Position numbers and translations under genes: made by a program
The notes under the pieces: generated by a model
Told to the model about the DNA's origin: nothing
The model's input: the letters and a program-made list of their open reading frames with translations, nothing else
Databases searched by the model: none
Source: an uncultured Roseivirgaceae bacterium
Lineage (GTDB): Bacteria > Bacteroidota > Bacteroidia > Cytophagales > Cyclobacteriaceae
Reading direction: 5' to 3'
NCBI GenBank assembly: GCA_964589185.1
Contig: CAZPST010000001.1
Span: 1 to 34,630, forward strand
Length of the DNA stretch: 34,630 bases
Shown: one piece after another, positions 1,376 through 33,120 of the stretch
Numbering within the stretch: position 1 is the stretch's first letter
Layout of the letters: each line of letters opens with the position of its first letter

Positions 1376-1410
1376 AAAGGAGTCATTGCTCATCACAGTG
1401 ACTCCTTTTT
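1376..1410 (+). terminator. Rho-independent terminator after the SusE/F-like gene
   Basis: Perfect 10-bp stem AAAGGAGTCA (1376-1385) / TGACTCCTTT (1399-1408) with a 13-nt loop, running into a T-tract (to 1410), 20 nt after the stop codon. Confidence 0.6.
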
Positions 1411-1436
1411 GTTACTACTCATTTAAAGCGAAAGCC

Positions 1437-14757: not shown

Positions 14758-14908
14758 TTTCAGATTTGTAGCGGTTAGACAAGGTTATGGAGAATTGACT
14801 TCACTTGCCCCATTTATTGTGGTTTTTTGCCTAATTTGAAATACAAAGTCATACGCATGGTCTATTGGCTTGTAAGTGGTATTTTTCCGTTTTAAATTGA
14901 GCCTTACC

Positions 14909-15529: not shown

Positions 15530-15531
15530 TT

Positions 15532-18069: not shown

Positions 18070-18812
18070 GTATAGTGGCCATCATCAACCAAAAGGGCGG
18101 TACCGGCAAAACGACCACTACGATTAACCTCGGCAGTGCCTTGGCGAAAAAGTGGAAGAAGGTAACGTTGGTAGACCTAGATCCGCAGGGAAATCTGAGC
18201 TATAGCTTGGGTATCAATGACTCGGAAGGTTCGATGGCCGATGTGTTGCTGGGCGACAAGCAATTAGCTGAAATCCTCATCGATCAGGAAGGTATGCGGG
18301 TGGCACCTGCCAATAATCAACTTGCCGATGCAGAACTGTCCCTAGCTGCGTCTGTCAACAGGGAGCATGTGCTTAAGGATGTGCTCAAGGGACAAAAAGA
18401 CCAAGATTTCGTTCTCATCGATTGTCCGCCTTCGCTTTCGGTACTTACGCTGAATGCCCTGCTGGCCGCTGACCAAGTGATCATACCGATGCAAATGGAG
18501 GTGTTAAGTCTTCAGGGACTAGACCAAATAGTGAATACAATAAATCGTGTGAAGTCGGCTTTCAAAAAGAAACTGAAAATTGCGGGTATTTTGCCTGTCA
18601 TGGTTGACAATCGTAGGAAACTGAGCCAAGAAGTGCACGACTACATTGCAGACAATTATGCCATCCCAATTTTCAAAAGTCAGATACGTGCCAATGTAAA
18701 AGCATCAGAGGCACCCTCGTTTGGCAAGAGTGTCATTGCGTATCAACCACGCTCCGCCAGTGCGCAAGATTATCTTCTTTTCGCAGATGAATTTCTAACC
18801 ATGAATGACTGA
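18066..18812 (+). CDS. ParA/MinD-family ATPase embedded in the che operon (ParC/PpfA-like)
   Basis: Deviant Walker A with signature lysine ([12 protein letters not shown]). DLDPQGN. Walker B-like FVLIDCPPS. 248 aa with no HTH extension. ATGA overlap with the MCP stop. Confidence 0.85.
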
Positions 18813-19528
18813 TGGCACTAGGTAGAAATTTGAAAAAGCAATCGCTCATTCCTGATAAGGAAGATGAAAAGAAAGACACGCCCGTAGCTAAGCCGGTGAA
18901 AGTGGAAAAGAAGAAATTGATTGGCACTAAAGAAAAGTCAAAGCGAGAGCGAAAATCACCGTCATCCTTCACCGGAAGCCTGTTTCATTACATCACAGAG
19001 CAGACATTGGCGCATCGGTCAGCCGTGCGCGAAAAGTACCAATTGGAGATACAGGCACTTGCCGGCAAGTCGGTTCAGTTGATCGTATTTGATGCAGGGA
19101 GTGAGGAATTTGCCGTGGATATCTCATCTGTAAAAGAAGTGATCAGCACGCCCACGATCGCCAAAGTACCCGGCATGCCTACCTACTTCAAAGGCATGAT
19201 TAAGGTGCGAAAGAATACCGTGCTGGTGATGGATTTGGGTGAGAAATTGCGCATCTCTACAGCGGATGAATTTCCGTACACATTGCTTTTGCGCAGTACC
19301 AAGCAGCCGCTCGGCTTGCTCCTGAGAGAACTTCCCCGCACGTTCAAAGTAGACGGTGGGCGAATCACAGGATCGCTACAGGCATTGGAACGTACCTCAA
19401 GAGATGAAATATTTGTCAAGGGACTCGTCAGTTTGAATGAGAAATTGGTTTTCTACCTCGACATAGAGGAATTGGTAAACAGTGACAAGGCAGTAGTGGT
19501 ACCGGATCAATTGGCCAAAAACGAATGA
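18812..19528 (+). CDS. CheW-domain protein with ~90-aa Lys-rich N-terminal extension (ParP-like, CheW-2)
   Basis: C-terminal CheW domain (LIVFDAGSEEFAVDISSVKEVI...YFKGMIKVRKNTVLVMDL...VKGLVSLNEKLVFYLDIEELV). The N-terminus [10 protein letters not shown] is followed by a K/E-rich linker (EDEKKDTPVAKPVKVEKKKLIGTKEKSKRERK). TGATG overlap with the ParA-like gene. Confidence 0.8.
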   Translation: MALGRNLKKQSLIPDKEDEKKDTPVAKPVKVEKKKLIGTKEKSKRERKSPSSFTGSLFHYITEQTLAHRSAVREKYQLEIQALAGKSVQLIVFDAGSEEFAVDISSVKEVISTPTIAKVPGMPTYFKGMIKVRKNTVLVMDLGEKLRISTADEFPYTLLLRSTKQPLGLLLRELPRTFKVDGGRITGSLQALERTSRDEIFVKGLVSLNEKLVFYLDIEELVNSDKAVVVPDQLAKNE

Positions 19529-20562
19529 GCATGAGCAAAAGACGTCTCCAAATATTGGTCGTTGACGATTCTGCATTCATGCGGTTATTGCTCTCTGATT
19601 TGATCTCAGAGGATGATGACCTAGAGGTGGCTGGTTCAGCTACCAATGGCATGGAGGCAGCCGCCAAGGTGGCTGAGTTATCACCAGACGTAGTGCTGCT
19701 CGATCTCAATATGGGAGATTATGATGGGCTGTTTGCCGTGAAAAAAATCATGGCCGAAAAGCCTACACCCATTTTGATTTTGAGCTCAGTGGGCAACACA
19801 GACCTGAATCCCATCTTTGAAGCGTTGAAATTCGGAGCGGTGGACTATATGAACAAGCCCGATCGCAACAACTTCAAAATGCGGACGATGCATTCGGAAC
19901 TGATGAGCAAAATTAAAGCCGCCGCTCGTGCTAAGCCCCGCACACTCCCGGTTACATCTGCACCAAAAAAGGCACTCAGTCGCAAAAAGAAGTCAAATTA
20001 TGATTTACTGGTCATTGGAGCGTCTACAGGAGGGCCTTCAGCCATCGAACAAATCATCACTGACCTACCGGCAGATTTTAATTTACCGGTCATTGTATGC
20101 CAGCACATGCCTACACTTTTCATTACGCCATTTGTCAACAGACTCAATTCGCTCACTGAACTCAATGTGGTCACTGCAGCCAAGTCCATGACGCCAGTGG
20201 CCGGAACGATCATGGTGTGCCCCGGACATGCCAACACGGTGCTGCGCAAATCGGGGAGTCGGTTCGTTGTGGAATTTGACGAGACTGTCTATCGCGAATA
20301 CAACAATCCATCAATCAATGCATTGATGCGAAGTGTGGCCGAAACCTACGGTGAAAAAGCCATAGGTGTGATCCTTACGGGCATGGGCAAAGATGGCGTA
20401 GATGGATTGAAGGCCATTAAAGAAACCGGAGGATACACGATTGCTCAAGACAAGGAGAGTTGTATCATTTACGGCATGCCGAAGGTGGCCGTGGAGCAGG
20501 ATGCGGTGCGTATGTCGCTGGATATCAAAGAAATAGGGGACTATATTGTGAATAATCTCTGA
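19525..20562 (+). CDS. cheB: CheB protein-glutamate methylesterase (REC + methylesterase)
   Basis: REC domain (ILVVDDS...VVLLDLNM...NKP). Methylesterase triad contexts GASTGGP (Ser), CQHMP (His), TGMGKDG (Asp). Confidence 0.9.
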   Translation: MSMSKRRLQILVVDDSAFMRLLLSDLISEDDDLEVAGSATNGMEAAAKVAELSPDVVLLDLNMGDYDGLFAVKKIMAEKPTPILILSSVGNTDLNPIFEALKFGAVDYMNKPDRNNFKMRTMHSELMSKIKAAARAKPRTLPVTSAPKKALSRKKKSNYDLLVIGASTGGPSAIEQIITDLPADFNLPVIVCQHMPTLFITPFVNRLNSLTELNVVTAAKSMTPVAGTIMVCPGHANTVLRKSGSRFVVEFDETVYREYNNPSINALMRSVAETYGEKAIGVILTGMGKDGVDGLKAIKETGGYTIAQDKESCIIYGMPKVAVEQDAVRMSLDIKEIGDYIVNNL

Positions 20563-22259
20563 TGGATTCAAAAGAAGCCGAATATCGCCATCTGTTTCTC
20601 ATGGAAGCCCATGAGAACTACGAGAAGCTCAATAACCTGTTTATTGAGTTAGAAAGAGATCCGTCTAGTCGCAATGCCATCAATGGGATTTTCAGGATTG
20701 TGCACACGCTCAAGGGCAATGCCATGCTCATGGGGTTTGATAAAATTGCCAATCTCACACATACCATGGAGGATGTGTTTGGCGCTTTGAGTGAGAAGAA
20801 AATACTCTTGACAGCCGAACTAATAGAAATACTCTTCCGATGCAACGACAAGTTGGGCGAATTGATAAAATCAATCGAATCAGGAGACAAAGTGAGCTAT
20901 TTAGGCGTGCGCACCAAGCTCTCCGTTTATCTGAAAAATGCCTTGGAAGGGGAAGAAAGTCCTAAAGAAGAGCAGCCACAACCCGAATTTGAAGAAGTCA
21001 TCGTAGAGGAAGCTCCTGCAGAAGATACAGCCGGAATCAGTTTTTCGGATGCTGTGCAGATTCCTATTCGTAAAATGGACGATTTGCTTAATCTGGTAGG
21101 TGAATTAGTCATTGAGCGTGACAGACTGATTGCCGTGTATGGTGCAGAGGGCAAGAGCACATTGGAGTTTGAAGGTTTGAAGCGCATTTCATCCAATCTG
21201 CATTACAGCATAATGAACATTCGGATGGTGCAGATGGGCTTTATGTTCAATAAATTTCATCGAATCCTAAGAGATGCTGCAACCTCTGCAAAGAAGGAAG
21301 TGAAGCTAGTGCTGAAAGGCACAGAGGTCGAAATAGACCGCAATATTCTCAAAATCATCAGCGACTCACTCATTCATTTGGTACGAAACTCGGTAAGCCA
21401 CGGCATTGAGTCAGACGCAGATCGACAGCAGGCCAATAAGCCAAAGGAGGGAACTGTGACGTTGGAAGCCCGACATGAGAAGGACAATGTAGTGCTTACG
21501 GTAACGGATGATGGTCGTGGCATTGATACCCAGAAGATTCGTAAAAAGGTAGTAGAGAAAAAAATGGTGTCGGCAGAAGTAGCCGAAAAGCTGCGTGATC
21601 CGGAAATCATCCGCTACATCTTCGAGCCGGGCTTTTCCAGTGCAGATGCCGTGAGTGAGCTATCGGGAAGAGGCGTGGGAATGGATGTGGTGAAAAGAGC
21701 CGTGGAGTCAATAGGAGGGCAGGTTTTGGTAGATACGGTGCTCGGTCAAGGGACATCTATTCACTTGGTTTTACCATCATCATTGGCACTCAAAGGCGCG
21801 CTTTTGTTTGAAATCGATGAGCAGGAATATGCCATTGCATTGGCGTATATTCAATCCGTCATTTACCTCACCAAGAAGGATATTCACAAGATCAGCAATG
21901 GACTGATGATCAATCACCAAGACGAAACGATCTCCATCGTGTTCTTAAAGGATTTGTTAGAAACACACGACTTGTCTGCCGTGCATGAAGGTAATTTACT
22001 TCATACAGGATATAATAACACACCTGACGATGAGCAATTGAGCGTGATACTCACGACCCATTCCGGTCGCCAGCTGGGGTTAGTCGTGGATCGATTGCAG
22101 CGACAAAAGGAAGTGATTGAGAAAAAATTACCCAAACCACTCGATGGAAGTAAGCTCCTAAGTGGTACTACCATTTTAGGTTCGGGCAATGTGTGTCCTG
22201 TGGTGGATGTGGCATCCGTCATGGACACGCTGTACTTATCAGGCACCCAAGCCGACTGA
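20562..22259 (+). CDS. cheA: CheA histidine kinase (P1-linker-P3-P4-P5; no recognisable P2)
   Basis: Hpt with phospho-His context FRIVHTLKGNA (His48, nt 20703-20705). Acidic linker EGEESPKEEQPQPEFEEVIVEEAPAED. P3 is IPIRKMDDLLNLVGELVIERDRL. P4 N-box is LIHLVRNSVSHGIE, with G-boxes DDGRGID and GRGVGMDVV. C-terminal CheW-like P5. Confidence 0.9.
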   Translation: MDSKEAEYRHLFLMEAHENYEKLNNLFIELERDPSSRNAINGIFRIVHTLKGNAMLMGFDKIANLTHTMEDVFGALSEKKILLTAELIEILFRCNDKLGELIKSIESGDKVSYLGVRTKLSVYLKNALEGEESPKEEQPQPEFEEVIVEEAPAEDTAGISFSDAVQIPIRKMDDLLNLVGELVIERDRLIAVYGAEGKSTLEFEGLKRISSNLHYSIMNIRMVQMGFMFNKFHRILRDAATSAKKEVKLVLKGTEVEIDRNILKIISDSLIHLVRNSVSHGIESDADRQQANKPKEGTVTLEARHEKDNVVLTVTDDGRGIDTQKIRKKVVEKKMVSAEVAEKLRDPEIIRYIFEPGFSSADAVSELSGRGVGMDVVKRAVESIGGQVLVDTVLGQGTSIHLVLPSSLALKGALLFEIDEQEYAIALAYIQSVIYLTKKDIHKISNGLMINHQDETISIVFLKDLLETHDLSAVHEGNLLHTGYNNTPDDEQLSVILTTHSGRQLGLVVDRLQRQKEVIEKKLPKPLDGSKLLSGTTILGSGNVCPVVDVASVMDTLYLSGTQAD

Positions 22260-22262
22260 CCT

Positions 22263-23102
22263 ATGGCGTCCATGGCACCCGATATGATCAGTGATGAAGA
22301 GCTTGCAGCACTCATGCAGGCTATAAACAATCGTTACGGGTTGGATTTCACTAACTATGAGCGCACGTCATTGAAGCGGGGCATAGTCCGGCTGATGATG
22401 AAGCATAAGATGGACACCATCATTGAGTTGTGGTCCAAAGTACTCAAAGATCAAGAGTTCTTTCTGAGTGCCATTGACGATCTGCTCGTAAACCTTACAG
22501 AGCTCTTCCGTAATCCTGACGTATGGATCAAGCTGCGCGATCAAATACTGCCTGATTTTAGAGGGAAAGGTCTGAAAATCTGGCATGCCGGGTGCTCCAC
22601 AGGAGAGGAGGTATACACCATGGCCATTGTACTTGAGGTCACGGGATTGCTGCCAAATGCCCGCTTGACCGCCACAGACCTCAGTTCTACGGCACTGCGA
22701 AAAGCTGTAAAAGGACATTATCCACTGGAGGTATTGAAGCAGTACCTCGTGCCTTTTTTGAAATTTTTCCCCAATCGCAGGCTTGAAGATTACTTTGATT
22801 ATTTCGACAAGCATGCCTTGATCAAATCAAAATACCAGAACAACGTACTTTTCAAAAAGCACAACTTGGTGACTGATCCGATGTATGACAAATTCGATAT
22901 CGTTTTTTGTCGAAATGTGATGATTTACTTTGACGATAAACTAAAGAAACGGGTGCTGGATATGCTCTACAATGGCCTCAAAGAAGGGGGCTATTTGATA
23001 ATAGGATATTATGACATTATGCCGGATTATGGCAAAACATTGTTCGATCTGTATGATGTAAAAACCCGGATTTATAAGAAAAAAGTGAGTGTTAATACCT
23101 AA
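22263..23102 (+). CDS. cheR: CheR protein-glutamate O-methyltransferase
   Basis: N-terminal CheR helical domain (NRYGLDFTNYERTSLKRGI). SAM-binding motif IWHAGCSTGEEVYTMA. FCRNVMIYFD. Confidence 0.9.
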   Translation: MASMAPDMISDEELAALMQAINNRYGLDFTNYERTSLKRGIVRLMMKHKMDTIIELWSKVLKDQEFFLSAIDDLLVNLTELFRNPDVWIKLRDQILPDFRGKGLKIWHAGCSTGEEVYTMAIVLEVTGLLPNARLTATDLSSTALRKAVKGHYPLEVLKQYLVPFLKFFPNRRLEDYFDYFDKHALIKSKYQNNVLFKKHNLVTDPMYDKFDIVFCRNVMIYFDDKLKKRVLDMLYNGLKEGGYLIIGYYDIMPDYGKTLFDLYDVKTRIYKKKVSVNT

Positions 23103-23115
23103 AAAGGAAAGCTAT

Positions 23116-23475
23116 ATGCGCATACTAATAGTTGATGATTCGAGCTATATCAGATCTAGATTGAAGGTGACATTGGAAAATAGCGGTTTTACTGTGATAG
23201 GAATGGCCGAAAATGGAGAGCAGGCCATTGACATGGCCATGGATTTAGGACCCGATATTATTACATTGGATAATATCCTGCCGGACATGACAGGTGTAGA
23301 CGTGCTGAAGGCGCTTAAAGATCACGAAGGTCTTACCAAAATCATCATGATAAGTGCCGTAGGACAGCAATCAGCCATCGCCGAAGGATTAGCCAATGGG
23401 GCAAGTGAGTACATCGTGAAGCCCTTTCAGGACGAAGAATTATTGCAAATCATCAAAAATATCAGCAAAGACTAG
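23116..23475 (+). CDS. cheY: CheY-like single-domain response regulator (CheY-1)
   Basis: ATG at 23116 (MRILIVDDSS). Phospho-acceptor context ITLDNILPDMTG. Ser/Thr (ISAVG). CheY-type aromatic switch and Lys (SEYIVKPF). Confidence 0.85.
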   Translation: MRILIVDDSSYIRSRLKVTLENSGFTVIGMAENGEQAIDMAMDLGPDIITLDNILPDMTGVDVLKALKDHEGLTKIIMISAVGQQSAIAEGLANGASEYIVKPFQDEELLQIIKNISKD

Positions 23476-23555
23476 TGACGATTAAGTAGAAACCCTTAGA
23501 AGATTATCGTCATGGTTGGCTATCTTGTATCTTATTAATCACCAACATAATCCGT

Positions 23556-24152
23556 ATGATCTCCAGCTTAAATGAAAACGAAATGAAGGTGGCCAGCAAA
23601 TTGATATTTGATGGTCTTTCTATGGCTAAATCGTCCATGGAGCAAATCCTGCAAAGCCCAATTACTATCCAAAAAATAGATTATAATGATGAAGCTGGCA
23701 TCCATCGCTTTTATGATGGCGGAGAAGGGGATGTGCACCTCATTAAAACTGAATTAATGGGGGAATTAAAGGGCGTCAGTCATTTGATTTTTTCGGCTGA
23801 TGAAGTGGCAAAATTGTACAAAGCGTGCTTGCCCGATCACGTTACTTTTGATGATTCTAATGAGAGTGCCTTGATGAAATTGGGCTTTCTCACAGAGATA
23901 GACAACATGGTGGCAGGAGCGGTCATTACAGAGTTTTCTAATTTCCTTGGCGTAGAGATATATGGTATGGTACCTTCGCTCACAGTAATGCATGCCAATG
24001 AAGTGAATGCCTATTTAGATGCTGAATCCACCGATATGGATTCTGTGATCCATTTCAAAGCTGTTTTTCACGGCAAAGAATTGGATATTTCCCCTGATTT
24101 CGTCTGGGTCTTCCATGATAAATTTGTGGACAAAATCAAGGGACTAGTATAG
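23556..24152 (+). CDS. CheC-family (CheC/FliY/CheX superfamily) CheY-P phosphatase-like protein with one intact and one degenerate site
   Basis: The second half carries a full E-x2-N-x22-P motif (E114-I-D-N117 ... P140 in LTEIDNMVAGAVITEFSNFLGVEIYGMVP). The first half keeps the spacing (E9-x2-V12-x22-P35) but Asn is replaced by Val. The 198-aa size fits CheC. Confidence 0.6.
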   Translation: MISSLNENEMKVASKLIFDGLSMAKSSMEQILQSPITIQKIDYNDEAGIHRFYDGGEGDVHLIKTELMGELKGVSHLIFSADEVAKLYKACLPDHVTFDDSNESALMKLGFLTEIDNMVAGAVITEFSNFLGVEIYGMVPSLTVMHANEVNAYLDAESTDMDSVIHFKAVFHGKELDISPDFVWVFHDKFVDKIKGLV

Positions 24153-24193
24153 TACGATATTGAATTGAAAGAAACTTAACTGAGAATATAATT

Positions 24194-24556
24194 ATGAGTA
24201 AGAGTGTGTTGATTGTGGACGATTCCATCTACATGAGATCATTGATAAAGTCGGCTCTTACGGGTGCCGGCTATAATGTGGTAGGTGAAGCGCAAAATGG
24301 TGAACAGGCGATAGATCTGGCAATAGAATTACAGCCCGACCTAATCACCCTTGACAATATTTTGCCCGATATGATGGGGTTTGAGATTCTTAAAGTCCTA
24401 AAAGATGAAGGCGTAGAATCTAAAGTCATTATGGTAAGTGCCGTAGGGCAGCAGACAGTGGTCAATAAGGGACTGTCGTTAGGAGCCTCAGAGTACATTG
24501 TGAAACCTTTTACAGAGGAAGATTTGGTTTCTGTAGTAAATAGGGTAATTTCCTGA
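24194..24556 (+). CDS. cheY: CheY-like single-domain response regulator (CheY-2), close paralogue of CheY-1
   Basis: VLIVDDS; ITLDNILPDMMG; VSAVGQQ; GASEYIVKPF. It shares long identical stretches with CheY-1 (NGEQAID, ITLDNILPDM, SAVGQQ, GASEYIVKPF). Confidence 0.85.
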   Translation: MSKSVLIVDDSIYMRSLIKSALTGAGYNVVGEAQNGEQAIDLAIELQPDLITLDNILPDMMGFEILKVLKDEGVESKVIMVSAVGQQTVVNKGLSLGASEYIVKPFTEEDLVSVVNRVIS

Positions 24557-24578
24557 TGTAAGCGCGTCACACAAACGA

Positions 24579-27185
24579 ATGATCAAAAAATTATACAACC
24601 TGCCGATCCGACAGAAGTTTGCGGTTATTATTTTACCGCTTATTCTTATCGTCTTGGTGTTTGATTATCTTCAAATCAAGCATCATTACGTGGATTTTAA
24701 TGATTCTAAGCGTCTGAATAAGGCCATCACAGTAGGAATTGAAATCAACCATGTAGTACACGAACTTCAGAAAGAACGCAGTATTTCAACAGGTTTTCTT
24801 TCCAATCAAGGAGCCACTTTCAGCGATGAGTTAAACGAACAGCGATCCAAGACAGATAGTACGCTGAATCAATACTATACCGAGATAAGTAGCAAAGCGC
24901 TCAAAGATTTAGTAGGCATTCATCAAGAAGATATTGATCAGTTAAATACCTGGTTTGATAAACTCAAAGTGCTTCGAGCCAATATTGATGCGCACGACAT
25001 CACGTCCGAACTGTCTATCGAGAGCTATTCAGATATCAATAACATGGCACTTAATACTGTCATTCGATTGATTGATGAAACCCGAGACAAGCAAGTGGCA
25101 CAGCAAGTGCACGCTATCATCTATTTTCTGAAAGCCAAAGAGAATGCGAGTATCGAACGAGCCATTGGCACCCAAGCCTTTTCCTTAAGTCATTTGGATT
25201 TTGGGCTATACAACAGATTCACCAGGCTTGTAGCCAATCAAAACTCGTTTTTTGAAGCGTTTCAAATTATTGCGGATGAGGAATCAAATGAGCAATATTC
25301 CACCATCTTGTCAGGTGATGCCGTCTCTGAAGTGAAGCGGATGCGGACGGTTTTGTTTCAAAATGATTCATTAAGTGAAAATGCCGCACATTGGTACGAT
25401 GTGAGCACGGAGCAAATAAATCTTCTTAAAAAACTTGAAGACGCAATGTCTGATCGGATACAATCTCGTACAGAAGATATTGCGATCAGTTCCATGCAAA
25501 AATTCTGGTCATTCTTGGTCTTGGATATTTTGATTGGCATTCTCACATTCTGGTTGATGACCACACTAGCGACCAACTTGCTCAAGAACGTCAAAATACT
25601 TGATGATTTTACAAAGAAAATTTCATCCGGTGATCTCACGCAGAAAGTAGTCATTGACTCGCGGGACGAATTAGGCCAGTATGCCAAAACGTTCAATCAG
25701 ATGGTGTTGGAGATTCGCAAGTCGCACTATGCGTTGCGCCAGCAGCGTGACAAAGCAAAATTTCTTTACGAGAACATCTATCGCGTCTCCATGGTTGTGT
25801 TCGAAAATATCCAGCAGGGTATCTTCTTGTTGGACAAAGAATTTAAAATCTCAAAGTTTCACTCGCGAGCGATGAAGGGCATCTTTGCCAATGACCGCAT
25901 TGCCGGTGAGAATTTCGCCAACTTCATGCGTCCACTCATTTTGCCACGCGAGTTAGAGGCACTTGAGATGTTTATGCGGCACTTGTTCAATGAGGACATG
26001 GATGAGGACGTGGTGAATCAGTTGAATCCGATTGATCAAGTGAAAATCCACACCGAACAAAACGGCGTGGTGGCCACCAAGTACATCCGCGTGGATTTCA
26101 CACGCGTGTATCGTCAGGATAAAATCCAGCATGTAATGGTGACCGTGTCTGACGAGACTGAATCTATCCTATTGCAGCAGCATCTGGATGAAGCAGAGAA
26201 GAAGAAGCAGCAAGAAACCGAGCGTGTACTCAGCATCCTCAAAATCGACCCATCCATTTTGCGTGGTTTCCTTCACAATTCGCGAAAAATGCTGAAGAGT
26301 ATTTCGCAGCGATATGAGCAGCACGACAAAGGTGATTTCGATGAATTGCTCAGTTTTACCATGGACATTATTCATAACCTAAAAGGAAATGCGGTAGTGA
26401 TAGGCATGGATTTGATGTCGAATAAATTCCATGAAATTGAGGAGACCATCACCCAATTGAAATCGCGTCAACTTCGTGGAAAGGACTTTTTGGCTGTGTT
26501 GTATGAAATAGATGAGGCCGATCGAATGATTGCCGATATTTCAGAAATGCTCTACAAGATTGTCAGCATTTACAAGAAATTTCCTGCTGAGGGTCATTCC
26601 GTATCCAATATAATGGTGGTGGACGCACTTGAACGTGGGGCAGAGCTCATCAGCAAAGAGGTAGGGAAAAATGTGGAGGTCAACTTCAAAAACGATAAGA
26701 ACCTCTCGATACCTGAAAAATACGTGGAGCCATTCAAGGATGTCATGATCCAACTCATTCGAAATTCGATCATTCACGGGATCGAAACGCCAAGTGCACG
26801 AATCACGGCCGGTAAGGTGATCAAAGGTGAAATTGGTATTGAATTGGACAAAACAGCTTCCGATGATTTGGTGATTCGCTACCACGATGATGGAGCCGGT
26901 TTGGATTTGCAAGAGATCAAAGTAAAAGCATTAGATAGGGGTATTGTGATGGGCTTTGAGCTAGAGAAGATGTCGGATCAAGAGCTGGTAGAATTGATTT
27001 TCTTGGAAGGATTCTCTACATCTGAAAAATCAAATAAGCATGCCGGTCGTGGACAAGGGATGCACCTCGTGAAATCAATTGTAGCAGACCATGGTGGCAC
27101 ATACGCATTGACCTACGAAAAAGGAAAGTCATTTGGTATTACCATTACATTCCCAAGTACAGGTGAAAAGCTGGAGCAAGAATGA
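24579..27185 (+). CDS. Membrane sensor kinase: TM - NIT (nitrate/nitrite-sensing-type) domain - TM - HAMP - PAS-like region - Hpt - CheA-type HATPase; no P3 or P5
   Basis: TM1 is aa ~13-30. The NIT-type periplasmic helical domain (aa ~45-295) has the hallmark HELQKERSISTGFLS plus ENASIERAIG. TM2 is aa ~309-331. HAMP is aa ~332-385 (SSGDLTQKVVIDSRDELGQYAKTFNQM). PAS-like region is aa ~395-530. Hpt is aa ~555-650 with CheA-P1-like IIHNLKGNA (His599, nt 26373-26375). The catalytic domain is co-linear with the CheA in this window (MIQLIRNSIIHGIE; HDDGAGLD; GRGQGMHLVKSIVADHGG). Confidence 0.8.
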   Translation: MIKKLYNLPIRQKFAVIILPLILIVLVFDYLQIKHHYVDFNDSKRLNKAITVGIEINHVVHELQKERSISTGFLSNQGATFSDELNEQRSKTDSTLNQYYTEISSKALKDLVGIHQEDIDQLNTWFDKLKVLRANIDAHDITSELSIESYSDINNMALNTVIRLIDETRDKQVAQQVHAIIYFLKAKENASIERAIGTQAFSLSHLDFGLYNRFTRLVANQNSFFEAFQIIADEESNEQYSTILSGDAVSEVKRMRTVLFQNDSLSENAAHWYDVSTEQINLLKKLEDAMSDRIQSRTEDIAISSMQKFWSFLVLDILIGILTFWLMTTLATNLLKNVKILDDFTKKISSGDLTQKVVIDSRDELGQYAKTFNQMVLEIRKSHYALRQQRDKAKFLYENIYRVSMVVFENIQQGIFLLDKEFKISKFHSRAMKGIFANDRIAGENFANFMRPLILPRELEALEMFMRHLFNEDMDEDVVNQLNPIDQVKIHTEQNGVVATKYIRVDFTRVYRQDKIQHVMVTVSDETESILLQQHLDEAEKKKQQETERVLSILKIDPSILRGFLHNSRKMLKSISQRYEQHDKGDFDELLSFTMDIIHNLKGNAVVIGMDLMSNKFHEIEETITQLKSRQLRGKDFLAVLYEIDEADRMIADISEMLYKIVSIYKKFPAEGHSVSNIMVVDALERGAELISKEVGKNVEVNFKNDKNLSIPEKYVEPFKDVMIQLIRNSIIHGIETPSARITAGKVIKGEIGIELDKTASDDLVIRYHDDGAGLDLQEIKVKALDRGIVMGFELEKMSDQELVELIFLEGFSTSEKSNKHAGRGQGMHLVKSIVADHGGTYALTYEKGKSFGITITFPSTGEKLEQE

Positions 27186-27556
27186 AAAAGCGCCTTCTCA
27201 TAGTAGATGACTCCTCTATCATGAGGAGAACCATAGAAAAGAATCTAGCCGAGTATGATTTAGAGATCATCGGTCAGGCATCAAATGGCAAAGAGGCATT
27301 GGAGATGGTGAAAAAGGAAATGCCCGATGTGATTACACTGGATATCACCATGCCTGAAATGAACGGTATAGAGTGTTTGGAAGGAATCATGAAAATTCAT
27401 CCTACGTGTAAGGTGATGATCATCACGGCACTCTCGGATAAGTTGACCGGTTTGATAGCCTTAGATAGGGGAGCTAGGGGTTTTTTGTACAAGCCTGTGA
27501 GTGCGGAGGATTTGGAGCGATCGTTCAATAAATTATTGAAGCGAAATGGAGAGTAG
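27182..27556 (+). CDS. cheY: CheY-like single-domain response regulator (CheY-3)
   Basis: LLIVDDSS; canonical ITLDITMPEMNG; ITALS; GFLYKPV. ATGA overlap with the kinase stop. Confidence 0.85.
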   Translation: MKKRLLIVDDSSIMRRTIEKNLAEYDLEIIGQASNGKEALEMVKKEMPDVITLDITMPEMNGIECLEGIMKIHPTCKVMIITALSDKLTGLIALDRGARGFLYKPVSAEDLERSFNKLLKRNGE

Positions 27557-28013
27557 AAAGGAGGAGTTCGAAGCTACATGCAATTTGTTCATCAATTCGG
27601 TGAATAATTATTTCAAGCATCTCACTGAGATTGATTCCAATATTAAGGTGCCATACCTCAAAGAATCTCAGGGATTGGTGCTCAAGGATTATACAGGCAT
27701 GATTGCCATTTCTGGCAGCCGAAAGGGCTTTGTATATATCTCTGCCAATCGAGACATGTTTGGTGATTTGATCCACATGTTTATCGGCATTGAAGATCCG
27801 TCTGACGAGGATATTTTGGACATGGCCGGTGAAATATCCAATGTGGTGGCAGGTAATGTGCGTGCCAATTTGGGTGCGAATTTTATGATTTCCGTACCCA
27901 TTGTATTTGAAGGTATGCCTTCCGAATTGAAAATACCGGAAGATATTTCAATTTACGTGATACCGATCCAATGGAACAACCATGAGGCTTTTGTTGTATT
28001 AGGATTAGAATAG
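27546..28013 (+). CDS. cheX: CheX-like CheY-P phosphatase
   Basis: 155 aa with a single D-x3-E-x2-N site (D92-MAG-E96-IS-N99 in LDMAGEISNVVAGNV) followed by P118. Size and single-site layout fit CheX rather than CheC. 11-nt overlap with CheY-3. Confidence 0.65.
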   Translation: MESRKEEFEATCNLFINSVNNYFKHLTEIDSNIKVPYLKESQGLVLKDYTGMIAISGSRKGFVYISANRDMFGDLIHMFIGIEDPSDEDILDMAGEISNVVAGNVRANLGANFMISVPIVFEGMPSELKIPEDISIYVIPIQWNNHEAFVVLGLE

Positions 28014-28019
28014 GCGAAG

Positions 28020-28823
28020 ATGATAGAGCAGGGAAATTCCAGAAAGACAGATGCGAAGGCTAATTGGCTACTCAATCTTGATAAGATTGAGGATAAGACG
28101 CGTCGCAATTATTTCTCAGGCTTACCACAGGAGCACACATTGTTGGATTTCTTCACCTATGCTTTTGTGATCAATAAACCCAAAGGCCGTGTGGGGGGCG
28201 ATGGATTTTGGTTGCATGAAAACGGAGATGATGTCTATCTAGCCTTGTTCACCTGCGTGGGCGAGGGGCATTTGGCGCACATGATGATCCGCATTTATAT
28301 GAATGCGCTCAAGAAAATGGTTAATGAATACGCCATTGATTATCCCGGATCCATCCTGCAGTTTGTGCACAAAGAGGTTCAGTCTCGATTTAATAGCAAA
28401 AACAACATCCTATTGAATACCAATGCCAATATTGGTATTGTCAAACTCAATGCAATCACCAAATCGATGGAATTTGCTGGAGCTAATATGAATTTGATTC
28501 AAGTGGCGCGTGATGGTGTGCGCATTATCGAAGGAGAGAAATATCAGGTAGGAGATACAGGTAAAGAGAAGCCAACATACAGTTCCAATTCGCTAAGCGA
28601 TACAGATACTTCGTCGTTCTATTTGTGCAGTTCTGGCATTTTTAATCTTATTGGAGGGTCTGCGTTCAAGAAGTTGTCGCAGAACGAGCTCACAGATCAT
28701 CTCAAGGCTATTCAGAGGTATCCTGTATCAAGCCAAAAAGAGCATGTAGAGGAGTTCATGGCCGATTGGACAGGATCAAACAGGCAGAATGATGACATTC
28801 TGGTGATTGGTTTTACGCCTTGA
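28020..28823 (+). CDS. SpoIIE/RsbU-type PP2C-like domain protein, stand-alone, with a partly degenerate metal-binding set
   Basis: SpoIIE-family landmarks are present: KGRVGGDGFWL (GGDxY-type, D61) and C-terminal NDDILVIGF (D258/D259). The expected D-x-x-G-x-G Asp reads FTCVGEGH (T78). The expected (T/S)DG Asp reads CSSGIF (S205). Confidence 0.6.
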   Translation: MIEQGNSRKTDAKANWLLNLDKIEDKTRRNYFSGLPQEHTLLDFFTYAFVINKPKGRVGGDGFWLHENGDDVYLALFTCVGEGHLAHMMIRIYMNALKKMVNEYAIDYPGSILQFVHKEVQSRFNSKNNILLNTNANIGIVKLNAITKSMEFAGANMNLIQVARDGVRIIEGEKYQVGDTGKEKPTYSSNSLSDTDTSSFYLCSSGIFNLIGGSAFKKLSQNELTDHLKAIQRYPVSSQKEHVEEFMADWTGSNRQNDDILVIGFTP

Positions 28824-30561: not shown

Positions 30562-31593
30562 TTATTTTCTGTCCCACGTAAGGCGCTGACTTATCGAAAC
30601 ATTGAAGAACCCGGATGGATTCACACCCAAATCTTCTCCCGGTAATTGTTGCGGAAAGGCGTAGGAATAACTGATCAGGATATTAGTCTTGTTGATGCTG
30701 AAAGTCAGGGGAAGACTGAATGTGTAGTTTAACAGCGCAAATGTGTCGCTTTCTTCCAATGTGTTTAAGAGTTCTTTGAGGGAGGCAATGTCTGCTTCAG
30801 ACCCTTCATTGAGCAGTCGACGTGTATTCCGCAATTGGATTGCTTCGGCAGTGGTGATGCGCCCATTTACCACAAGAAAGCGAATCTCATCATCTGTAAG
30901 TTGCTGAACACGGAGCAGGTACGCATCTATTTCTTCGGTGGAATACTGATAGGTGAATATGCTAGTAGTACCTGCAATCATGGATACAGACGGATACAGG
31001 GTTATAGTTTTTACTAGCGGTACTCCTTTGATCCGTATTCGGCGACTTAGGCTTGGTATCAACCGATGACCCGTGTCTTTTCCCCACAAAAAGGCATAGT
31101 CTACCCCTATATCTACGGCCTTCGTGTTTCGAGTGATTGAAGTTCCCATACTGTTTGATAGATCGGTAGAAAAAGAATTATGAAAGAATGAGCGCTCTAC
31201 ATAGGGATTGATTGTCCACTTGAGGCTGGGCATCCAAAAATAACCCGCATGAAGAATAGTTTGATATGCGGCAGGTCTGTAATTGGTATCAAAAAAGGTG
31301 CTTACATCTGTATAAAAACCTGATTTGTGATAATAAGCCAAGCCTGTGGTGTAGCCTTTTTGTTCAAGATTGAAATCTCGTCCGGCAGTCAAGCGGCTAG
31401 ACATGTAGCCCAAACGAACGCTAATTTCAGAAGTAGGAGAGGGCAGGAGCAACACACTATCCAGAAAGCTGAATAAGGCAATAGAATCCATTTCCAGCTC
31501 CAAATCAGCCAGTTGCTGCTCAATGCTCAGCGAATCTGACTGACTGTGAACACGGAATGAAATAATGAGTAAGCCAAGAACGATCCAGCGCAT
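30562..31593 (-). CDS. Hypothetical secreted/outer-membrane protein (possible beta-barrel with helical insert)
   Basis: Signal peptide (MRWIVLGLLIISFRVHSQ). Alternating aromatic/polar beta-strand-like segments (GLAYYHKSGFYTDVSTFF, VDIGVDYAFLW, ILISYSYAF) are interrupted by a helical stretch (aa ~225-290). No recognisable family motif. Confidence 0.4.
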   Translation of the reverse strand: MRWIVLGLLIISFRVHSQSDSLSIEQQLADLELEMDSIALFSFLDSVLLLPSPTSEISVRLGYMSSRLTAGRDFNLEQKGYTTGLAYYHKSGFYTDVSTFFDTNYRPAAYQTILHAGYFWMPSLKWTINPYVERSFFHNSFSTDLSNSMGTSITRNTKAVDIGVDYAFLWGKDTGHRLIPSLSRRIRIKGVPLVKTITLYPSVSMIAGTTSIFTYQYSTEEIDAYLLRVQQLTDDEIRFLVVNGRITTAEAIQLRNTRRLLNEGSEADIASLKELLNTLEESDTFALLNYTFSLPLTFSINKTNILISYSYAFPQQLPGEDLGVNPSGFFNVSISQRLTWDRK

Positions 31594-31617
31594 GAATTAG
31601 GTAGTGTGGCGCGTCGG

Positions 31618-32115
31618 TTAATTCCTTCGGCGCTGTAAATCCTGATTGCCTTGCTGGCGCTCCTGCATTTGTTGTCGGCGTTGCTGCTGCTCACGCAAGC
31701 GATTGAGGATCATTACTTTGAAGTCTGATTCAGCTTTACGCAGACTCAACATCTGCCGATTGTCTATGACTTGAAGCAAACGCTCAGAGTAGGTGCGTTC
31801 CAATTCGATGGTACGTTCTTTCACCTGCATTCCCAGCTCCAGCAAGCGCTTATTGTCATCATCTGAGGCCGTTTCCGGATTGTGACGGTTTCTTGCTTGC
31901 GTGAATTCCCTTCGCACTTCTTCTTGCCTACGGCTGTACTCATTATAAATTGGCCAAAATTTCTCAGCCTGCGCAGGCGTAAGCTGCAGCCGCTCTGTGA
32001 TAAGGGCAATTTTAGCTGCCTCTATCTGTTCTCTCGGATTTCGTTCGCCCTTGGGTTGACTTACTGCCGCCAAACTTGCGACAATCAGGGCTACAAATAG
32101 GGTGTACTTTTTCAT
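31618..32115 (-). CDS. Periplasmic Spy/CpxP-like helical protein
   Basis: The ATG at 32113-32115 gives a signal peptide (MKKYTLFVALIVASLAAVSQ). LTPAQAEKFWPIYNEY and Arg/Gln/Glu-rich helices are typical of Spy/CpxP-like periplasmic proteins found after Bacteroidota ECF sigma/anti-sigma pairs. The longer ORF (to 32220) would overlap the upstream gene. Confidence 0.55.
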   Translation of the reverse strand: MKKYTLFVALIVASLAAVSQPKGERNPREQIEAAKIALITERLQLTPAQAEKFWPIYNEYSRRQEEVRREFTQARNRHNPETASDDDNKRLLELGMQVKERTIELERTYSERLLQVIDNRQMLSLRKAESDFKVMILNRLREQQQRRQQMQERQQGNQDLQRRRN

Positions 32116-32119
32116 GGTA

Positions 32120-32548
32120 TTATGAGTTAATTTCGTTTTCGTATTCCAATAAGAGTTGGTCCAAATCATCTGTTTCCAACTGTAAATCATCGAAGGCGTC
32201 TTCTTCTTGCCATAGGTCATTGATCACGTTAGGGCTCACGCCTTCTAATAGCTCTGCCTCGCTGAATTCGCTGATGTCCAGATATTCTAATAAAGTCTCC
32301 TCATCTACTTGCGCCAACATTTGCTCGGCGGTGAGTGTTGTGTCGCTTTGGTAGATCCAGATGACGGCTACTAATGTGAGCATTGCTGCTGCAGCCATCG
32401 CCCATTTCAATTGTGGCGCGGGGAGCCACGCACGCTTTTTCTTGTCCTGAATACGCGCTTGTATGTCCACAGTCAATTGATCGAAGTAGCCTTCAGGCAC
32501 CTGAAAAGGTGACTTTTTGTTCAGCTCATCTAGTTTTATTCGTTTCAT
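32120..32548 (-). CDS. Putative single-pass anti-sigma factor
   Basis: Lies 32 nt downstream of the ECF sigma gene. One TM segment (WAMAAAAMLTLVAVIWIY). Acidic C-terminal tail. The call rests on position and topology only. Confidence 0.45.
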   Translation of the reverse strand: MKRIKLDELNKKSPFQVPEGYFDQLTVDIQARIQDKKKRAWLPAPQLKWAMAAAAMLTLVAVIWIYQSDTTLTAEQMLAQVDEETLLEYLDISEFSEAELLEGVSPNVINDLWQEEDAFDDLQLETDDLDQLLLEYENEINS

Positions 32549-32580
32549 TGCAGCATTTGATTTAAAAAGGCGGCTATAGT

Positions 32581-33120
32581 TTAATGTGGATTGAGAAATT
32601 CTTCCATTTTTTTTACTGCGTGGTGATAGCTGGCCTTGAGTGCACCTTCGCTCGTACCCGTGATTTCAGCCATCTCGCTGAATTTCATTTCATCGTAGTA
32701 TTTCATGTTGAAAACCAATCGCTGTTTGTCCGGCAGTCTGAGCAGTGCTTTTTGCAGTTTGAGTTCAATTTCATCTCCTGTCATCAGATTTGCCTGATCT
32801 AATTTGCCCATTAACTCGCTTGTCACGTCATGAATAGGAAGGAAAAAGCGGCGTTTTTTCTTGTTGAGAAAATTGAGGCATTCGTTGGTAGCAATGCGAT
32901 ATATCCAGGTGAAGACCTTTGAATCTTCCCTAAACGAATCGAGGTTGTTCCACACCTTTACAAATATGTCTTGTGTCACATCATTGGCGTCTTCATGGTC
33001 GATTACCATTTTGCGTACGTGCCAGTACACGCGCTGTTGGTAGGTTTTCACCAGTAGGTTGAACCCATAGTGGCGTGTTTCTGAGCTTCGTAGTTTGGAT
33101 ATGATGAACTTTTCGTCCAA
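32581..33120 (-). CDS. ECF-type RNA polymerase sigma-70 family factor
   Basis: Region 2 (LLVKTYQQRVYWHVRKMV...DANDVTQDIFVKVW...FTWIYRIATNECLNF) and region 4 (LPDKQRLVFNMKYYDEMKFSEMAEITGTSEGALKASYHHAVKKM). The start is a TTG at 33118-33120, and the first in-frame ATG would delete region 2, so the start is uncertain. Confidence 0.85.
   Translation of the reverse strand: MDEKFIISKLRSSETRHYGFNLLVKTYQQRVYWHVRKMVIDHEDANDVTQDIFVKVWNNLDSFREDSKVFTWIYRIATNECLNFLNKKKRRFFLPIHDVTSELMGKLDQANLMTGDEIELKLQKALLRLPDKQRLVFNMKYYDEMKFSEMAEITGTSEGALKASYHHAVKKMEEFLNPH

What the first reader, a model, noticed from the sequence alone, without database searches (positions are those of the whole stretch)
28020..28823. 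Terminal SpoIIE/PP2C-like gene with two of four canonical metal-binding Asp residues substituted: candidate pseudo-phosphatase or output module
Seen: the last gene of the array has SpoIIE/RsbU-family landmarks (VGGDGFWL with D61; C-terminal NDDILVIGF with D258/D259). The position aligned by eye to the D of the D-x-x-G-x-G motif reads T78 (FTCVGEGH). The position aligned to the D of the (T/S)DG motif reads S205 (CSSGIF). Established: in SpoIIE/RsbU-type PPM phosphatases four Asp residues (equivalents of B. subtilis SpoIIE D610, D628, D746, D795, recalled from the literature) coordinate the Mn2+ pair. Hpt-to-REC-to-PP2C signalling is known from the Pseudomonas HptB-HsbR-HsbA partner switch, where REC and PP2C are fused. 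Inference: the REC (CheY-2/3) and PP2C-like modules are separate proteins here, and the PP2C-like protein may be catalytically impaired and act as a CheY~P-regulated binding or scaffold output. It could also use a variant metal site. No STAS/anti-sigma-antagonist substrate gene is in the window. The substitutions rest on my manual alignment and could shift by a residue or two.
Basis: partly seen in the sequence, partly recalled or inferred. Interest (0 to 1): 0.65.

Follow-up and report, generated by a model that had tools for sequence, protein, structure and literature searches.

The report
Catalytically dead PP2C in chemosensory operon
The last gene of this chemotaxis-like operon encodes a PP2C-type protein phosphatase fold in which the metal-binding active site has been neutralised. 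The gene has nevertheless been kept under strong selection in every Ekhidna-group species examined, so it is most likely a non-catalytic "pseudophosphatase" signalling part, comparable to E. coli RssB.

Summary
ORF 28020-28823 (267 aa) is a stand-alone SiaA/SpoIIE-type PP2C domain. Its AlphaFold model matches SiaA-PP2C (PDB 6K4E) with TM-score 0.80-0.86. Three independent alignments place T78 and S205 opposite the metal-ligand aspartates D474 and D600 of SiaA. One of them is a profile built only from 142 canonical domains. D61 and D258/D259 are retained. Three further active-site residues are also replaced: E82 for the His of the DxxGHG motif, N137 for D534, and N209 for D604.

This five-residue pattern is fixed in all 31 species-level Ekhidna-clade loci found. 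Position 78 is T or S, and position 205 is S or T in all but one. Most syntenic orthologues in Marinoscillum and Cyclobacteriaceae keep every Asp, as do 141 of 147 nearest family representatives.

The gene is not decaying. dN/dS is 0.008-0.04, as for the catalytic orthologues. Its clade stem branch is 2-6 times longer, relative to within-clade depth, than those of five neighbouring genes.

The best reading is a pseudophosphatase retained as a non-catalytic output or adaptor of the HKIII-CheY-CheX module. A SiaC-family phosphoprotein is a candidate partner. The function itself is inferred, and nothing here tests activity.

The parts
28020..28823 (+). Stand-alone PP2C-like (SiaA/SpoIIE-type PPM fold) protein of 267 aa, the last gene of the operon; candidate pseudophosphatase
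   Evidence: ORF. NF038263 SiaA C-terminal domain, E = 1.7e-28. 6K4E, E = 1.8e-15. AF2 model with pLDDT 84.7. Foldseek TM-score 0.80-0.86 to 6K4E. No PF07228 hit.
28053..28118 (+). N-terminal helix (residues 12-33) ahead of the PPM core. D25, N30, Y31 and P36 are conserved in both degenerate and canonical orthologues. It is the likely linker, dimerisation or regulator-docking element.
   Evidence: DSSP on the model (pLDDT is low for residues 1-23). Conservation. The analogy to the RsbU linker and the SiaA alpha1-alpha3 dimer interface is inferred from PMC12143880 and PMC7647112.
28200..28202 (+). D61, retained; equivalent of SiaA D457
28251..28253 (+). T78, replacing the Asp ligand equivalent to SiaA D474. 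It is T or S throughout the Ekhidna clade.
28263..28265 (+). E82, replacing the conserved His of the D-x-x-G-H-G motif (SiaA H478)
28428..28430 (+). N137, replacing the Asp equivalent to SiaA D534, which helps hold the third metal
28632..28634 (+). S205, replacing the Asp equivalent to SiaA D600 (an active-site Asp and the ligand of the third metal). It is S or T in 30 of the 31 Ekhidna-clade loci.
28644..28646 (+). N209, replacing the Asp equivalent to SiaA D604, which also helps hold the third metal
28791..28796 (+). D258-D259, retained; D258 is the equivalent of SiaA D653
27546..28013 (+). CheX-family CheY~P phosphatase, immediately upstream
   Evidence: PF13690, E = 1.6e-19. Syntenic with the PP2C gene in the 67 fetched loci (window included) that show the run HKIII-CheY-CheX-PP2C.
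27182..27556 (+). Single-domain receiver (CheY-3). It overlaps the kinase stop by 4 nt and the CheX start by 11 nt.
   Evidence: PF00072, E = 1.5e-27; coordinates
24579..27185 (+). NIT-HAMP-Hpt-HATPase sensor kinase (CheA-like class III type), the presumed donor for CheY-3
23556..24556 (+). CheC/CheX-like single-site protein (23556-24152) and CheY-2 (24194-24556), the first two genes of the conserved six-gene sub-module

Best explanation
The gene encodes a PPM/PP2C-fold pseudophosphatase. An ancestral SiaA/SpoIIE-type Ser/Thr phosphatase was already the terminal gene of a sub-module in Cytophagales. That sub-module reads CheC-like, CheY, HKIII kinase, CheY, CheX, PP2C. On the stem of the Ekhidna clade the phosphatase lost its metal centre. 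Five active-site positions changed: D to T78, H to E82, D to N137, D to S/T205 and D to N209.

By homology with other PPM phosphatases, T78 replaces the Asp that bridges the two catalytic metals. S205 replaces a ligand of the first metal and the only ligand of the third. The canonical metal-activated-water hydrolysis of phospho-Ser/Thr should therefore be lost or severely crippled. This step is inferred from SiaA structural data and from other PPM pseudophosphatases.

The protein is nevertheless kept under strong purifying selection. It retains D61, D258/D259, the G-x-G-H loop and the N-terminal helix. The hydroxyl side chains at positions 78 and 205 are themselves conserved.

I infer that it works as a non-catalytic output or adaptor of the kinase-to-CheY-3 branch. 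In this model, CheY-3~P, whose lifetime is set by CheX, controls dimerisation or partner binding through the N-terminal helix and switch region. The remodelled pocket would bind a partner protein rather than dephosphorylate it. The most likely partner is a SiaC-family phosphoprotein, the substrate class of the closest characterised relative.

Shown here: the fold, the substitutions, their clade-wide fixation, purifying selection, the stem-branch burst and the synteny. Inferred: loss of activity, regulation by CheY-3 and the identity of the partner.
For: Fold and family.

Ligand mapping onto SiaA D457, D474, D534, D600, D604 and D653: (PMC7647112). An independent canonical-only profile agrees.

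Clade-wide fixation: among the 109 homologues, position 78 is T in about 92 and S in 4, and position 205 is S in about 65 and T in 29. All 31 species-level Ekhidna-clade loci lack Asp at both positions, and 30 of them carry N137 and N209. The clade is monophyletic with 100% SH-aLRT support.

Orthologues in the same operon position keep all Asp in 29 other loci. 141 of 147 nearest family representatives are four-Asp.

Not a pseudogene: dN/dS is 0.008-0.040, against 0.008-0.068 in catalytic orthologues. The clade's share of total tree length is 0.32, against 0.25-0.34 for five neighbour genes.

Change of function on the stem: the ratio of stem length to within-clade depth is 1.27, against 0.21-0.73 for the neighbours. 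The five positions that are conserved in both clades but differ between them (78, 82, 90, 137, 209) are four mapped active-site positions plus I90, eight residues after E82.

Precedents: E. coli RssB is a PPM pseudophosphatase lacking catalytic Asp and acts as an adaptor (PMC6546054; PMC12143880). PHLPP2 and TAB1 lost the first and third metal sites and have no activity (PMC12002173).

Candidate partner: PF09345 SiaC genes lie within 10 kb of this PP2C family in 15 distinct loci. Ten are among the 31 Ekhidna-clade loci, one of them 27 bp away. Five are non-Ekhidna loci in four different arrangements.
Against: No enzymatic or binding data exist.

Four carboxylates remain in or near the pocket (D61, E82, D258, D259). 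Together with the conserved hydroxyls at 78 and 205 they could form a variant metal site, so some hydrolytic activity is not excluded.

Regulation by CheY-3 rests on adjacency only. No REC-PP2C fusions were found among the nearest relatives scanned.

The window itself has no SiaC or STAS gene. The rest of its genome could not be searched.

SiaC linkage within Ekhidna is partly inherited synteny, so the loci are not independent events.

Confidence: 0.7

Rival explanations
1. The protein is still an active hydrolase with a re-engineered metal site. E82 would stand in for the lost Asp, together with D61, D258/D259 and the T78 and S205 hydroxyls. They would bind one or two metals in a different geometry. 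The enzyme would act on phospho-Ser/Thr or on a different phospho-substrate.
For: E82 is a newly fixed carboxylate inside the catalytic loop, and D61 and D258/D259 are invariant. Positions 78 and 205 tolerate almost only S/T exchange, which looks like selection for a ligand or hydrogen-bonding group rather than neutral filling. Purifying selection is as strong as in active orthologues.
Against: The residue equivalent to the bridging Asp and three other Asp of the metal centre are all neutralised together. All PPM enzymes known to date need two or three metals. PPM proteins lacking the first and third metal sites (PHLPP2, TAB1) are inactive (PMC12002173). Ser/Thr hydroxyls are poor ligands for Mn2+ (general chemistry, not tested here).
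Confidence: 0.2
2. The protein is a dominant-negative or heterodimerising regulator. It would pair through the PPM alpha1-alpha3 interface with catalytically active SpoIIE-type phosphatases encoded elsewhere in the genome and tune them, rather than binding substrate itself. This is a sub-case of the pseudophosphatase reading.
For: SiaA-PP2C is a homodimer through helices alpha1-alpha3 (PMC7647112). PPM activation works through dimerisation of the switch element (PMC12143880). One genome (L040) carries both a degenerate terminal copy and a canonical copy in one cluster.
Against: The Ekhidna clusters contain no second PP2C. No data exist on the dimer interface. The active-site pocket residues are more tightly conserved than this role alone would need.
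Confidence: 0.1
3. The gene is a decaying remnant, or the substitutions are an alignment artefact.
For: There is no Pfam hit to PF07228. It is the fastest-evolving gene of the module.
Against: The frame is intact in 31 species-level genomes. dN/dS is 0.008-0.04. The AF2 model is confident. Three independent alignments agree with the highest posterior marks.
Confidence: 0.01

Closest known systems
SiaA PP2C domain of Pseudomonas aeruginosa (PDB 6K4E; SiaABCD pathway)
   Same: It is the closest solved structure and the closest sequence relative (E = 1.8e-15; TM-score 0.80-0.86). It has the same flap-less SpoIIE-type PPM fold with N-terminal helices. SiaC-family genes are recurrent neighbours of the Cytophagales family.
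   Different: SiaA is a 663-aa membrane sensor with an active PP2C domain, three Mg2+ ions and all ligand Asp (PMC7647112). It sits in a siaABCD operon. The window protein is a 267-aa stand-alone domain in a chemosensory operon. It lacks the equivalents of D474, H478, D534, D600 and D604. It scores 99.6 bits against the NF038263 cut-off of 700.
E. coli RssB (receiver domain plus degenerate PP2C; ClpXP adaptor for sigma-S)
   Same: It is a bacterial PPM-fold pseudophosphatase that lost catalytic Asp yet kept regulatory features and works as a phosphorylation-controlled binding adaptor (PMC6546054; PMC12143880). A receiver domain and a PP2C-like domain belong to one pathway.
   Different: In RssB the two domains are fused and part of the PPM fold is missing. 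Here they are separate genes with CheX between them and the PPM fold is complete. Bacteroidota have no RpoS (general knowledge, not tested here). There is no closer sequence relationship than to other PPMs; P. aeruginosa RssB gives TM-score about 0.6-0.67.
Eukaryotic PPM pseudophosphatases PHLPP2 and TAB1
   Same: A catalytic ancestor lost its first and third metal sites on one ancestral branch. The protein was then conserved over a long period, with parts of the second metal site retained (PMC12002173).
   Different: They are unrelated lineages with different domain contexts. PHLPP2 binds a single Zn2+ through a Cys and three Asp. The metal content of the window protein is unknown.
HptB-HsbR-HsbA, RsbY and CrsR-type receiver-PP2C partner-switch regulators
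   Different: In those systems the receiver is fused to a catalytically competent PP2C and a STAS substrate is encoded alongside. Here the receiver is separate, the PP2C site is degenerate, and no substrate gene is in the window.
Class III histidine kinase systems (Adebali et al. 2017, J Bacteriol; recalled from memory, paper not held)
   Same: They comprise a sensor-fused CheA-like kinase without P3 and P5 domains, a single-domain receiver and CheX. That matches genes 24579-28013.
   Different: A PP2C gene is not, to my recollection, part of the described HKIII system. In Cytophagales it is a constant sixth gene of the sub-module.

Membership tests
PPM / PP2C fold (SpoIIE-type, Pfam PF07228) | Four-layer alpha-beta-beta-alpha PPM fold | tested here: met
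   AF2 model with pLDDT 84.7 and pTM 0.82. The top Foldseek hits are all PPM structures: SiaA, RsbX, RssB, SpoIIE and Rv1364c.
PPM / PP2C fold (SpoIIE-type, Pfam PF07228) | Significant match to the family profile | tested here: not met
   No PF07228 hit even at E <= 10. Orthologues that keep the Asp residues do hit PF07228. A custom profile of 142 canonical domains does match, at 237 bits.
PPM / PP2C fold (SpoIIE-type, Pfam PF07228) | Four conserved metal-ligand Asp (SiaA D457, D474, D600, D653; SpoIIE D610, D628, D746, D795) | tested here: not met
   Only D61 and D258 are present. T78 and S205 replace the other two.
PPM / PP2C fold (SpoIIE-type, Pfam PF07228) | Mn2+- or Mg2+-dependent phospho-Ser/Thr phosphatase activity | not testable with these tools
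   This needs purified protein.
SiaA (NCBIfam NF038263, equivalog) | Full-length sensor architecture scoring at or above the 700-bit cut-off, in a siaABCD operon | tested here: not met
   99.6 bits, covering model positions 427-656 only. The protein is a stand-alone 267-aa domain. No siaB, siaC or siaD gene is in the window.
PPM-fold pseudophosphatases (E. coli RssB, TAB1, PHLPP1/2) | PPM fold lacking catalytic metal ligands | tested here: met
PPM-fold pseudophosphatases (E. coli RssB, TAB1, PHLPP1/2) | Retained under purifying selection after the loss, so not a pseudogene | tested here: met
   dN/dS 0.008-0.040. 31 species-level loci are intact. The clade's share of tree length is like that of neighbour genes.
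PPM-fold pseudophosphatases (E. coli RssB, TAB1, PHLPP1/2) | Demonstrated absence of activity and a non-catalytic function | not testable with these tools
   This needs biochemistry and genetics.
Class III histidine kinase (HKIII) signalling module | Sensor-fused CheA-type kinase lacking P3 and P5 domains, plus a single-domain receiver, plus CheX | tested here: met
   NIT-HAMP-Hpt-HATPase_c kinase with no H-kinase_dim or CheW domain, followed by REC and CheX. The family definition is recalled from memory and from note e1-4271086; the paper is not held.

The most novel reading that the evidence does not exclude
The stand-alone PP2C of the Cytophagales CheC-like/CheY/HKIII/CheY/CheX/PP2C module is the pathway's output device. 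Its essential job would be binding rather than catalysis. It would form, in effect, a 'split RssB': CheY-3~P in trans controls a PPM-fold adaptor that captures a SiaC-type phosphoprotein. That would explain why its metal centre could be dismantled wholesale in Ekhidna, and degraded in two other small lineages, without the gene being lost. It would link a chemosensory array in non-flagellated gliding Bacteroidota to a partner-switch output.
Probability: 0.2. Interest if true: 0.7.

Novelty: new variant of a known kind. Interest (0 to 1): 0.5.

Why it matters
Bacterial pseudoenzymes that have been analysed are rare. E. coli RssB is essentially the only well-studied PPM pseudophosphatase in bacteria.

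This case offers a natural matched pair. Orthologues sit in the same operon position either with a complete catalytic centre (Marinoscillum and many Cyclobacteriaceae) or with a coordinately neutralised one (Ekhidna, including the cultured E. lutea DSM 19307 and Ekhidna sp. To15). The question "what does a PP2C do once it stops being an enzyme?" therefore becomes directly testable.

It also points to the still unknown output of a large chemosensory/HKIII cluster in gliding, non-flagellated Bacteroidota. A SiaC-type partner switch is a concrete candidate. For annotation, Pfam currently misses this clade, and public records name it either "hypothetical protein" or "PP2C/SpoIIE family phosphatase".

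Tried and rejected
1. Pfam scan at E <= 10 gave no PF07228 hit. The family was established through NCBIfam, PDB and fold instead.

2. I looked for REC-PP2C fusions among the ten nearest multidomain relatives, as support for CheY control. Nine carry TPR, PAS/GAF, Reg_prop/Y_Y_Y or YfiR-like modules and one has no recognised N-terminal domain. None has a REC domain.

3. I tested whether the three degenerate lineages (Ekhidna; DNH-type L033/L034/L072; NADE-type L040/L045) are independent losses. The AU test does not reject a single clade (p = 0.51). I therefore claim only one to three loss events.

4. The second CheC-like paralogue next to the PP2C was considered as a possible substrate. It is a CheC/CheX-type phosphatase (ExxN-x22-P motif). 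It also accompanies the other two degenerate lineages, so it is not tied to catalysis.

6. An expression check found no public sequencing run holding the stretch.

7. The terminator and promoter scan around the gene found nothing above shuffled expectation.

8. The HKIII paper (PMC5573082) is not held, and two literature searches for it were unproductive.

9. The pseudogene and misalignment readings are rejected.

10. I do not claim that E82 replaces the general-acid His of human PPM1A. The motif spacing differs and the equivalence was not tested.
Full report
**What is there**

The ORF 28020..28823 (+, ATG, 267 aa) is the last of fourteen co-directional genes. It starts 6 nt after the CheX stop and is followed by a convergent pyrG.

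Pfam and NCBIfam scans give the following gene order:
- CheW
- MCP
- ParA-like ATPase
- CheW
- CheB
- CheA
- CheR
- CheY-1
- a 198-aa CheC-like protein
- CheY-2
- a NIT-HAMP-Hpt-HATPase kinase of the CheA-like class III type
- CheY-3
- CheX
- this gene

The window appears to be a whole 34,630-bp metagenomic contig, since the longest contig listed for the window's protein is 34,630 bp. Its relatives place it in the Ekhidna group of Cytophagales.

**Family and fold**

Pfam finds nothing for this protein, not even PF07228 at E <= 10. NCBIfam NF038263 (SiaA) matches residues 36-266 to the C-terminal PP2C part of the model. The score is E = 1.7e-28 and 99.6 bits, far below the 700-bit equivalog cut-off because only the domain is present.

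The only solved relative by sequence is SiaA-PP2C of P. aeruginosa, 6K4E (E = 1.8e-15). An AlphaFold2 model built on 35 homologues has pLDDT 84.7 and pTM 0.82. Its best structural matches are 6K4E (TM-score 0.80-0.86), then RsbX, P. aeruginosa RssB, SpoIIE and Rv1364c. The PPM fold is therefore secure. A predicted N-terminal helix (residues 12-33) precedes the core.

**The ligand columns**

The SiaA structure paper names D457, D474, G477, D600, G601 and D653 as the conserved active-site residues. It states that the C475 carbonyl binds the second metal. It also describes a third Mg2+ held by D600 with help from D534 and D604 (PMC7647112). Using the phmmer alignment and the chain offset of +362, the window residues map as follows:

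| Window residue | SiaA residue |
|---|---|
| D61 | D457 |
| T78 | D474 |
| C79 | C475 |
| G81 | G477 |
| E82 | H478 |
| N137 | D534 |
| S205 | D600 |
| G206 | G601 |
| N209 | D604 |
| D258 | D653 |

MAFFT alignments with orthologues agree. As a check free of circularity, I built an HMM only from 142 canonical four-Asp domains and aligned the window protein to it. The score is 237 bits with top posterior marks throughout. T78, E82, N137, S205 and N209 sit opposite D, H, D, D and d of the consensus 'vvDCtGHG ... GmDia ... fsDGytdqfGg'.

It is also larger than stated: five active-site positions are changed, not two.

**More than chance, and clade-wide**

A full HMMER search of 1.84 billion cluster representatives returned 26,262 family members. 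Of the 147 closest new representatives, 141 have all four Asp.

Among 109 closer homologues, position 78 is T in about 92 and S in 4. Position 205 is S in about 65 and T in 29. Twelve outgroup proteins read D or N at position 78 and D at position 205.

A scan of one genome per GTDB species gave 70 loci. All 31 Ekhidna-clade loci lack Asp at positions 78 and 205. Thirty read D-T-C-G-H-N-(S/T)-G-N-N-D-D at positions 61, 78, 79, 81, 84, 137, 205, 206, 209 and 257-259, with minor changes in two rows. One locus (L029) reads S78, P205, D137 and K209. Twenty-nine loci in Marinoscillum, Cyclobacteriaceae and Roseivirgaceae genomes read D-D-C-G-H-D-D-G-D-x-D-D.

The sub-module CheC-like, CheY, HKIII, CheY, CheX, PP2C is syntenic throughout. 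These are therefore orthologues in the same operon position.

An IQ-TREE analysis recovers the Ekhidna clade with 100% SH-aLRT support on a long stem of 0.97 substitutions per site. Two other small lineages are also degenerate. L033/L034/L072 have D78N, D137H and D209R. L040/L045 have D61N, D78A and D205E. An AU test does not reject one common clade for all degenerate proteins (p = 0.51). The number of independent losses is therefore between one and three.

**A working gene, not a wreck**

For the three Ekhidna-clade pairs with unsaturated dS, dN/dS is 0.022, 0.008 and 0.040. This is the same range as CheX, CheY-3 and the kinase in the same pairs. It also matches the canonical PP2C orthologues, at 0.008-0.068.

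The PP2C is the fastest-evolving protein of the module in both groups. Its mean p-distance is 1.39 times that of the kinase in the Ekhidna clade and 1.21 times in the canonical group.

In FastTree trees of six module genes on the same 59 taxa, the Ekhidna subtree holds 0.32 of total tree length for the PP2C. The figure for the neighbours is 0.25-0.34, so constraint is not relaxed. The Ekhidna stem is 1.27 times the mean within-clade depth for the PP2C, against 0.21-0.73 for the neighbours. That pattern is a burst of change on the ancestral branch followed by normal constraint.

Five positions are conserved in both groups but differ between them: 78, 82, 90, 137 and 209. Four are mapped active-site positions, and I90 lies eight residues after E82. 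Position 205 misses the threshold only because S and T alternate. Within the clade positions 78 and 205 exchange almost only between S and T, which suggests that the hydroxyl groups themselves are selected.

**Mechanism**

By homology with other PPM phosphatases, the Asp replaced by T78 bridges the two catalytic metals. D600 helps bind the first metal and is the only ligand of the third, according to for the third-metal role. D534 and D604 support the third metal.

PPM enzymes need two or three metals. PPM proteins that lost the first and third sites (PHLPP2, TAB1) are inactive (PMC12002173). [quoted passage not shown] The regulatory linker and switch logic was kept when it lost activity (PMC12143880).

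I therefore read the window protein as a pseudophosphatase (confidence about 0.7). Neutralising four Asp residues is also what one expects if a metal-free pocket is to remain stable; this point is an inference.

How it acts is also inferred. The N-terminal helix and the retained D61, GxGH and D258/D259 elements are conserved in both groups. In RsbU, a partner protein binding the linker drives dimerisation through the switch helices. CheY-3 and CheX are always its immediate neighbours. The simplest model is that CheY-3~P, timed by CheX, controls this protein's oligomeric state or partner binding. The only support is adjacency, because no REC-PP2C fusions appear among the nearest relatives scanned.

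**A candidate partner**

SiaA's substrate is SiaC, phosphorylated on T68 in the peptide 'LLYLNTSSIK'. PF09345 SiaC genes with the same N-T-S-S motif ('EYFNTSSSK') lie within 10 kb downstream of the PP2C-like gene in 10 of 31 Ekhidna-clade loci. The distance ranges from 27 bp (convergent, L028) to 9.6 kb.

Outside the clade, SiaC genes occur in several arrangements:
- 602 bp downstream on the same strand (L043)
- 2.5 kb downstream (L069)
- 7.7 kb downstream, next to a DUF6272 gene (L044)
- at the head of an array that reads SiaC, CheC-like, CheY, deacetylase-like protein, PP2C, weak STAS-like protein, CheY, CheA (L049 and L054)

The repeated, differently arranged linkage suggests that this PP2C family acts on SiaC-type proteins.

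In the window itself no SiaC, STAS or RsbW-type gene exists. The rest of the genome could not be searched because the tool is shut.

**Rivals**

A variant metal site built from D61, E82, D258/D259 and the two hydroxyls remains possible (about 0.2). Heterodimerisation with active PPM paralogues is a sub-variant of the pseudophosphatase reading. Pseudogene and misalignment readings are excluded.

**Comparison and novelty**

The protein works like RssB, PHLPP2 or TAB1: a PPM fold turned into a binding module. It is not a member of the SiaA equivalog. It fails two defining features of catalytic PF07228 members, the profile match and the four Asp ligands.

I found no description of a stand-alone pseudo-PP2C as a fixed component of a chemosensory/HKIII operon (literature searches). 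I rate it a new variant of a known kind, of moderate interest. Its value lies in the natural active-versus-dead orthologue pair and in pointing to the output of this pathway in gliding Bacteroidota.

Noticed in passing
window 23556-24152; L002:11089-11697, L055:10762-11382(-) and others: The 198-aa 'CheC-like' protein has one CheC/CheX-type site, with E114-x2-N117-x22-P140 invariant in 17 aligned sequences. A second paralogue of 27-41% identity lies beside or within about 6 kb of the PP2C gene in 18 of 28 canonical loci and in both other degenerate lineages. It is found in none of the 31 Ekhidna-clade loci.
   Followed up: partly
L003:16898-17293(-), L028:8304-8684(-), L043:11403-11813, L049:7073-7447, L069:13312-13719, L044:18506-18907: SiaC-family (PF09345) phosphoprotein genes with the conserved N-T-S-S phosphosite motif recur near this PP2C family in several different arrangements. 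In L044 one is paired with a DUF6272 gene. No such gene is in the window.
   Followed up: partly
L049:7073-20735 and L051:8670-20741: Some Cyclobacteriaceae genomes carry a second che cluster directly upstream of the main module. L049 reads SiaC, CheC-like, CheY, histone-deacetylase-like protein, PP2C (canonical), weak STAS-like 138-aa protein, CheY, CheA, CheW, MCP, CheR, HisKA kinase, CheD, CheB. L051 shows the same order from the deacetylase-like gene onward.
   Followed up: partly
L040:38-787, L061:10004-10753, L036:9091-9909: Extra canonical PP2C paralogues occur at other positions in the cluster, between MCP and ParA/CheW or in tandem after CheX. In L040 a canonical copy coexists with a degenerate terminal copy.
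   Followed up: partly
L060 (PBTY01000042.1): A contig titled 'Rickettsiales bacterium isolate NP5' carries the complete Cytophagales module. Its PP2C nests inside Marinoscillum in the tree, so it is probably a mis-binned or mislabelled MAG contig.
   Followed up: no
window 14876-28823: Across orthologous loci the module genes evolve at very different rates. Identity to the window is CheY-2 69-88%, CheX 64-89% and CheY-3 70-87%, but the PP2C only 34-68%.
   Followed up: yes
window 1386-4586: A 1066-aa alpha-amylase/CBM48 protein ends in a Por_Secre_tail (type IX secretion sorting domain). This fits a gliding, T9SS-bearing Bacteroidota host. A cyclomaltodextrinase and an esterase follow it.
   Followed up: no
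window 30562-33120 (-): An ECF sigma factor (32581-33120) is followed by a small protein with no family hit, a Spy/LTXXQ-like protein (31618-32220) and a 342-aa protein with no Pfam hit. Another first-stage note had already flagged this module.
   Followed up: no
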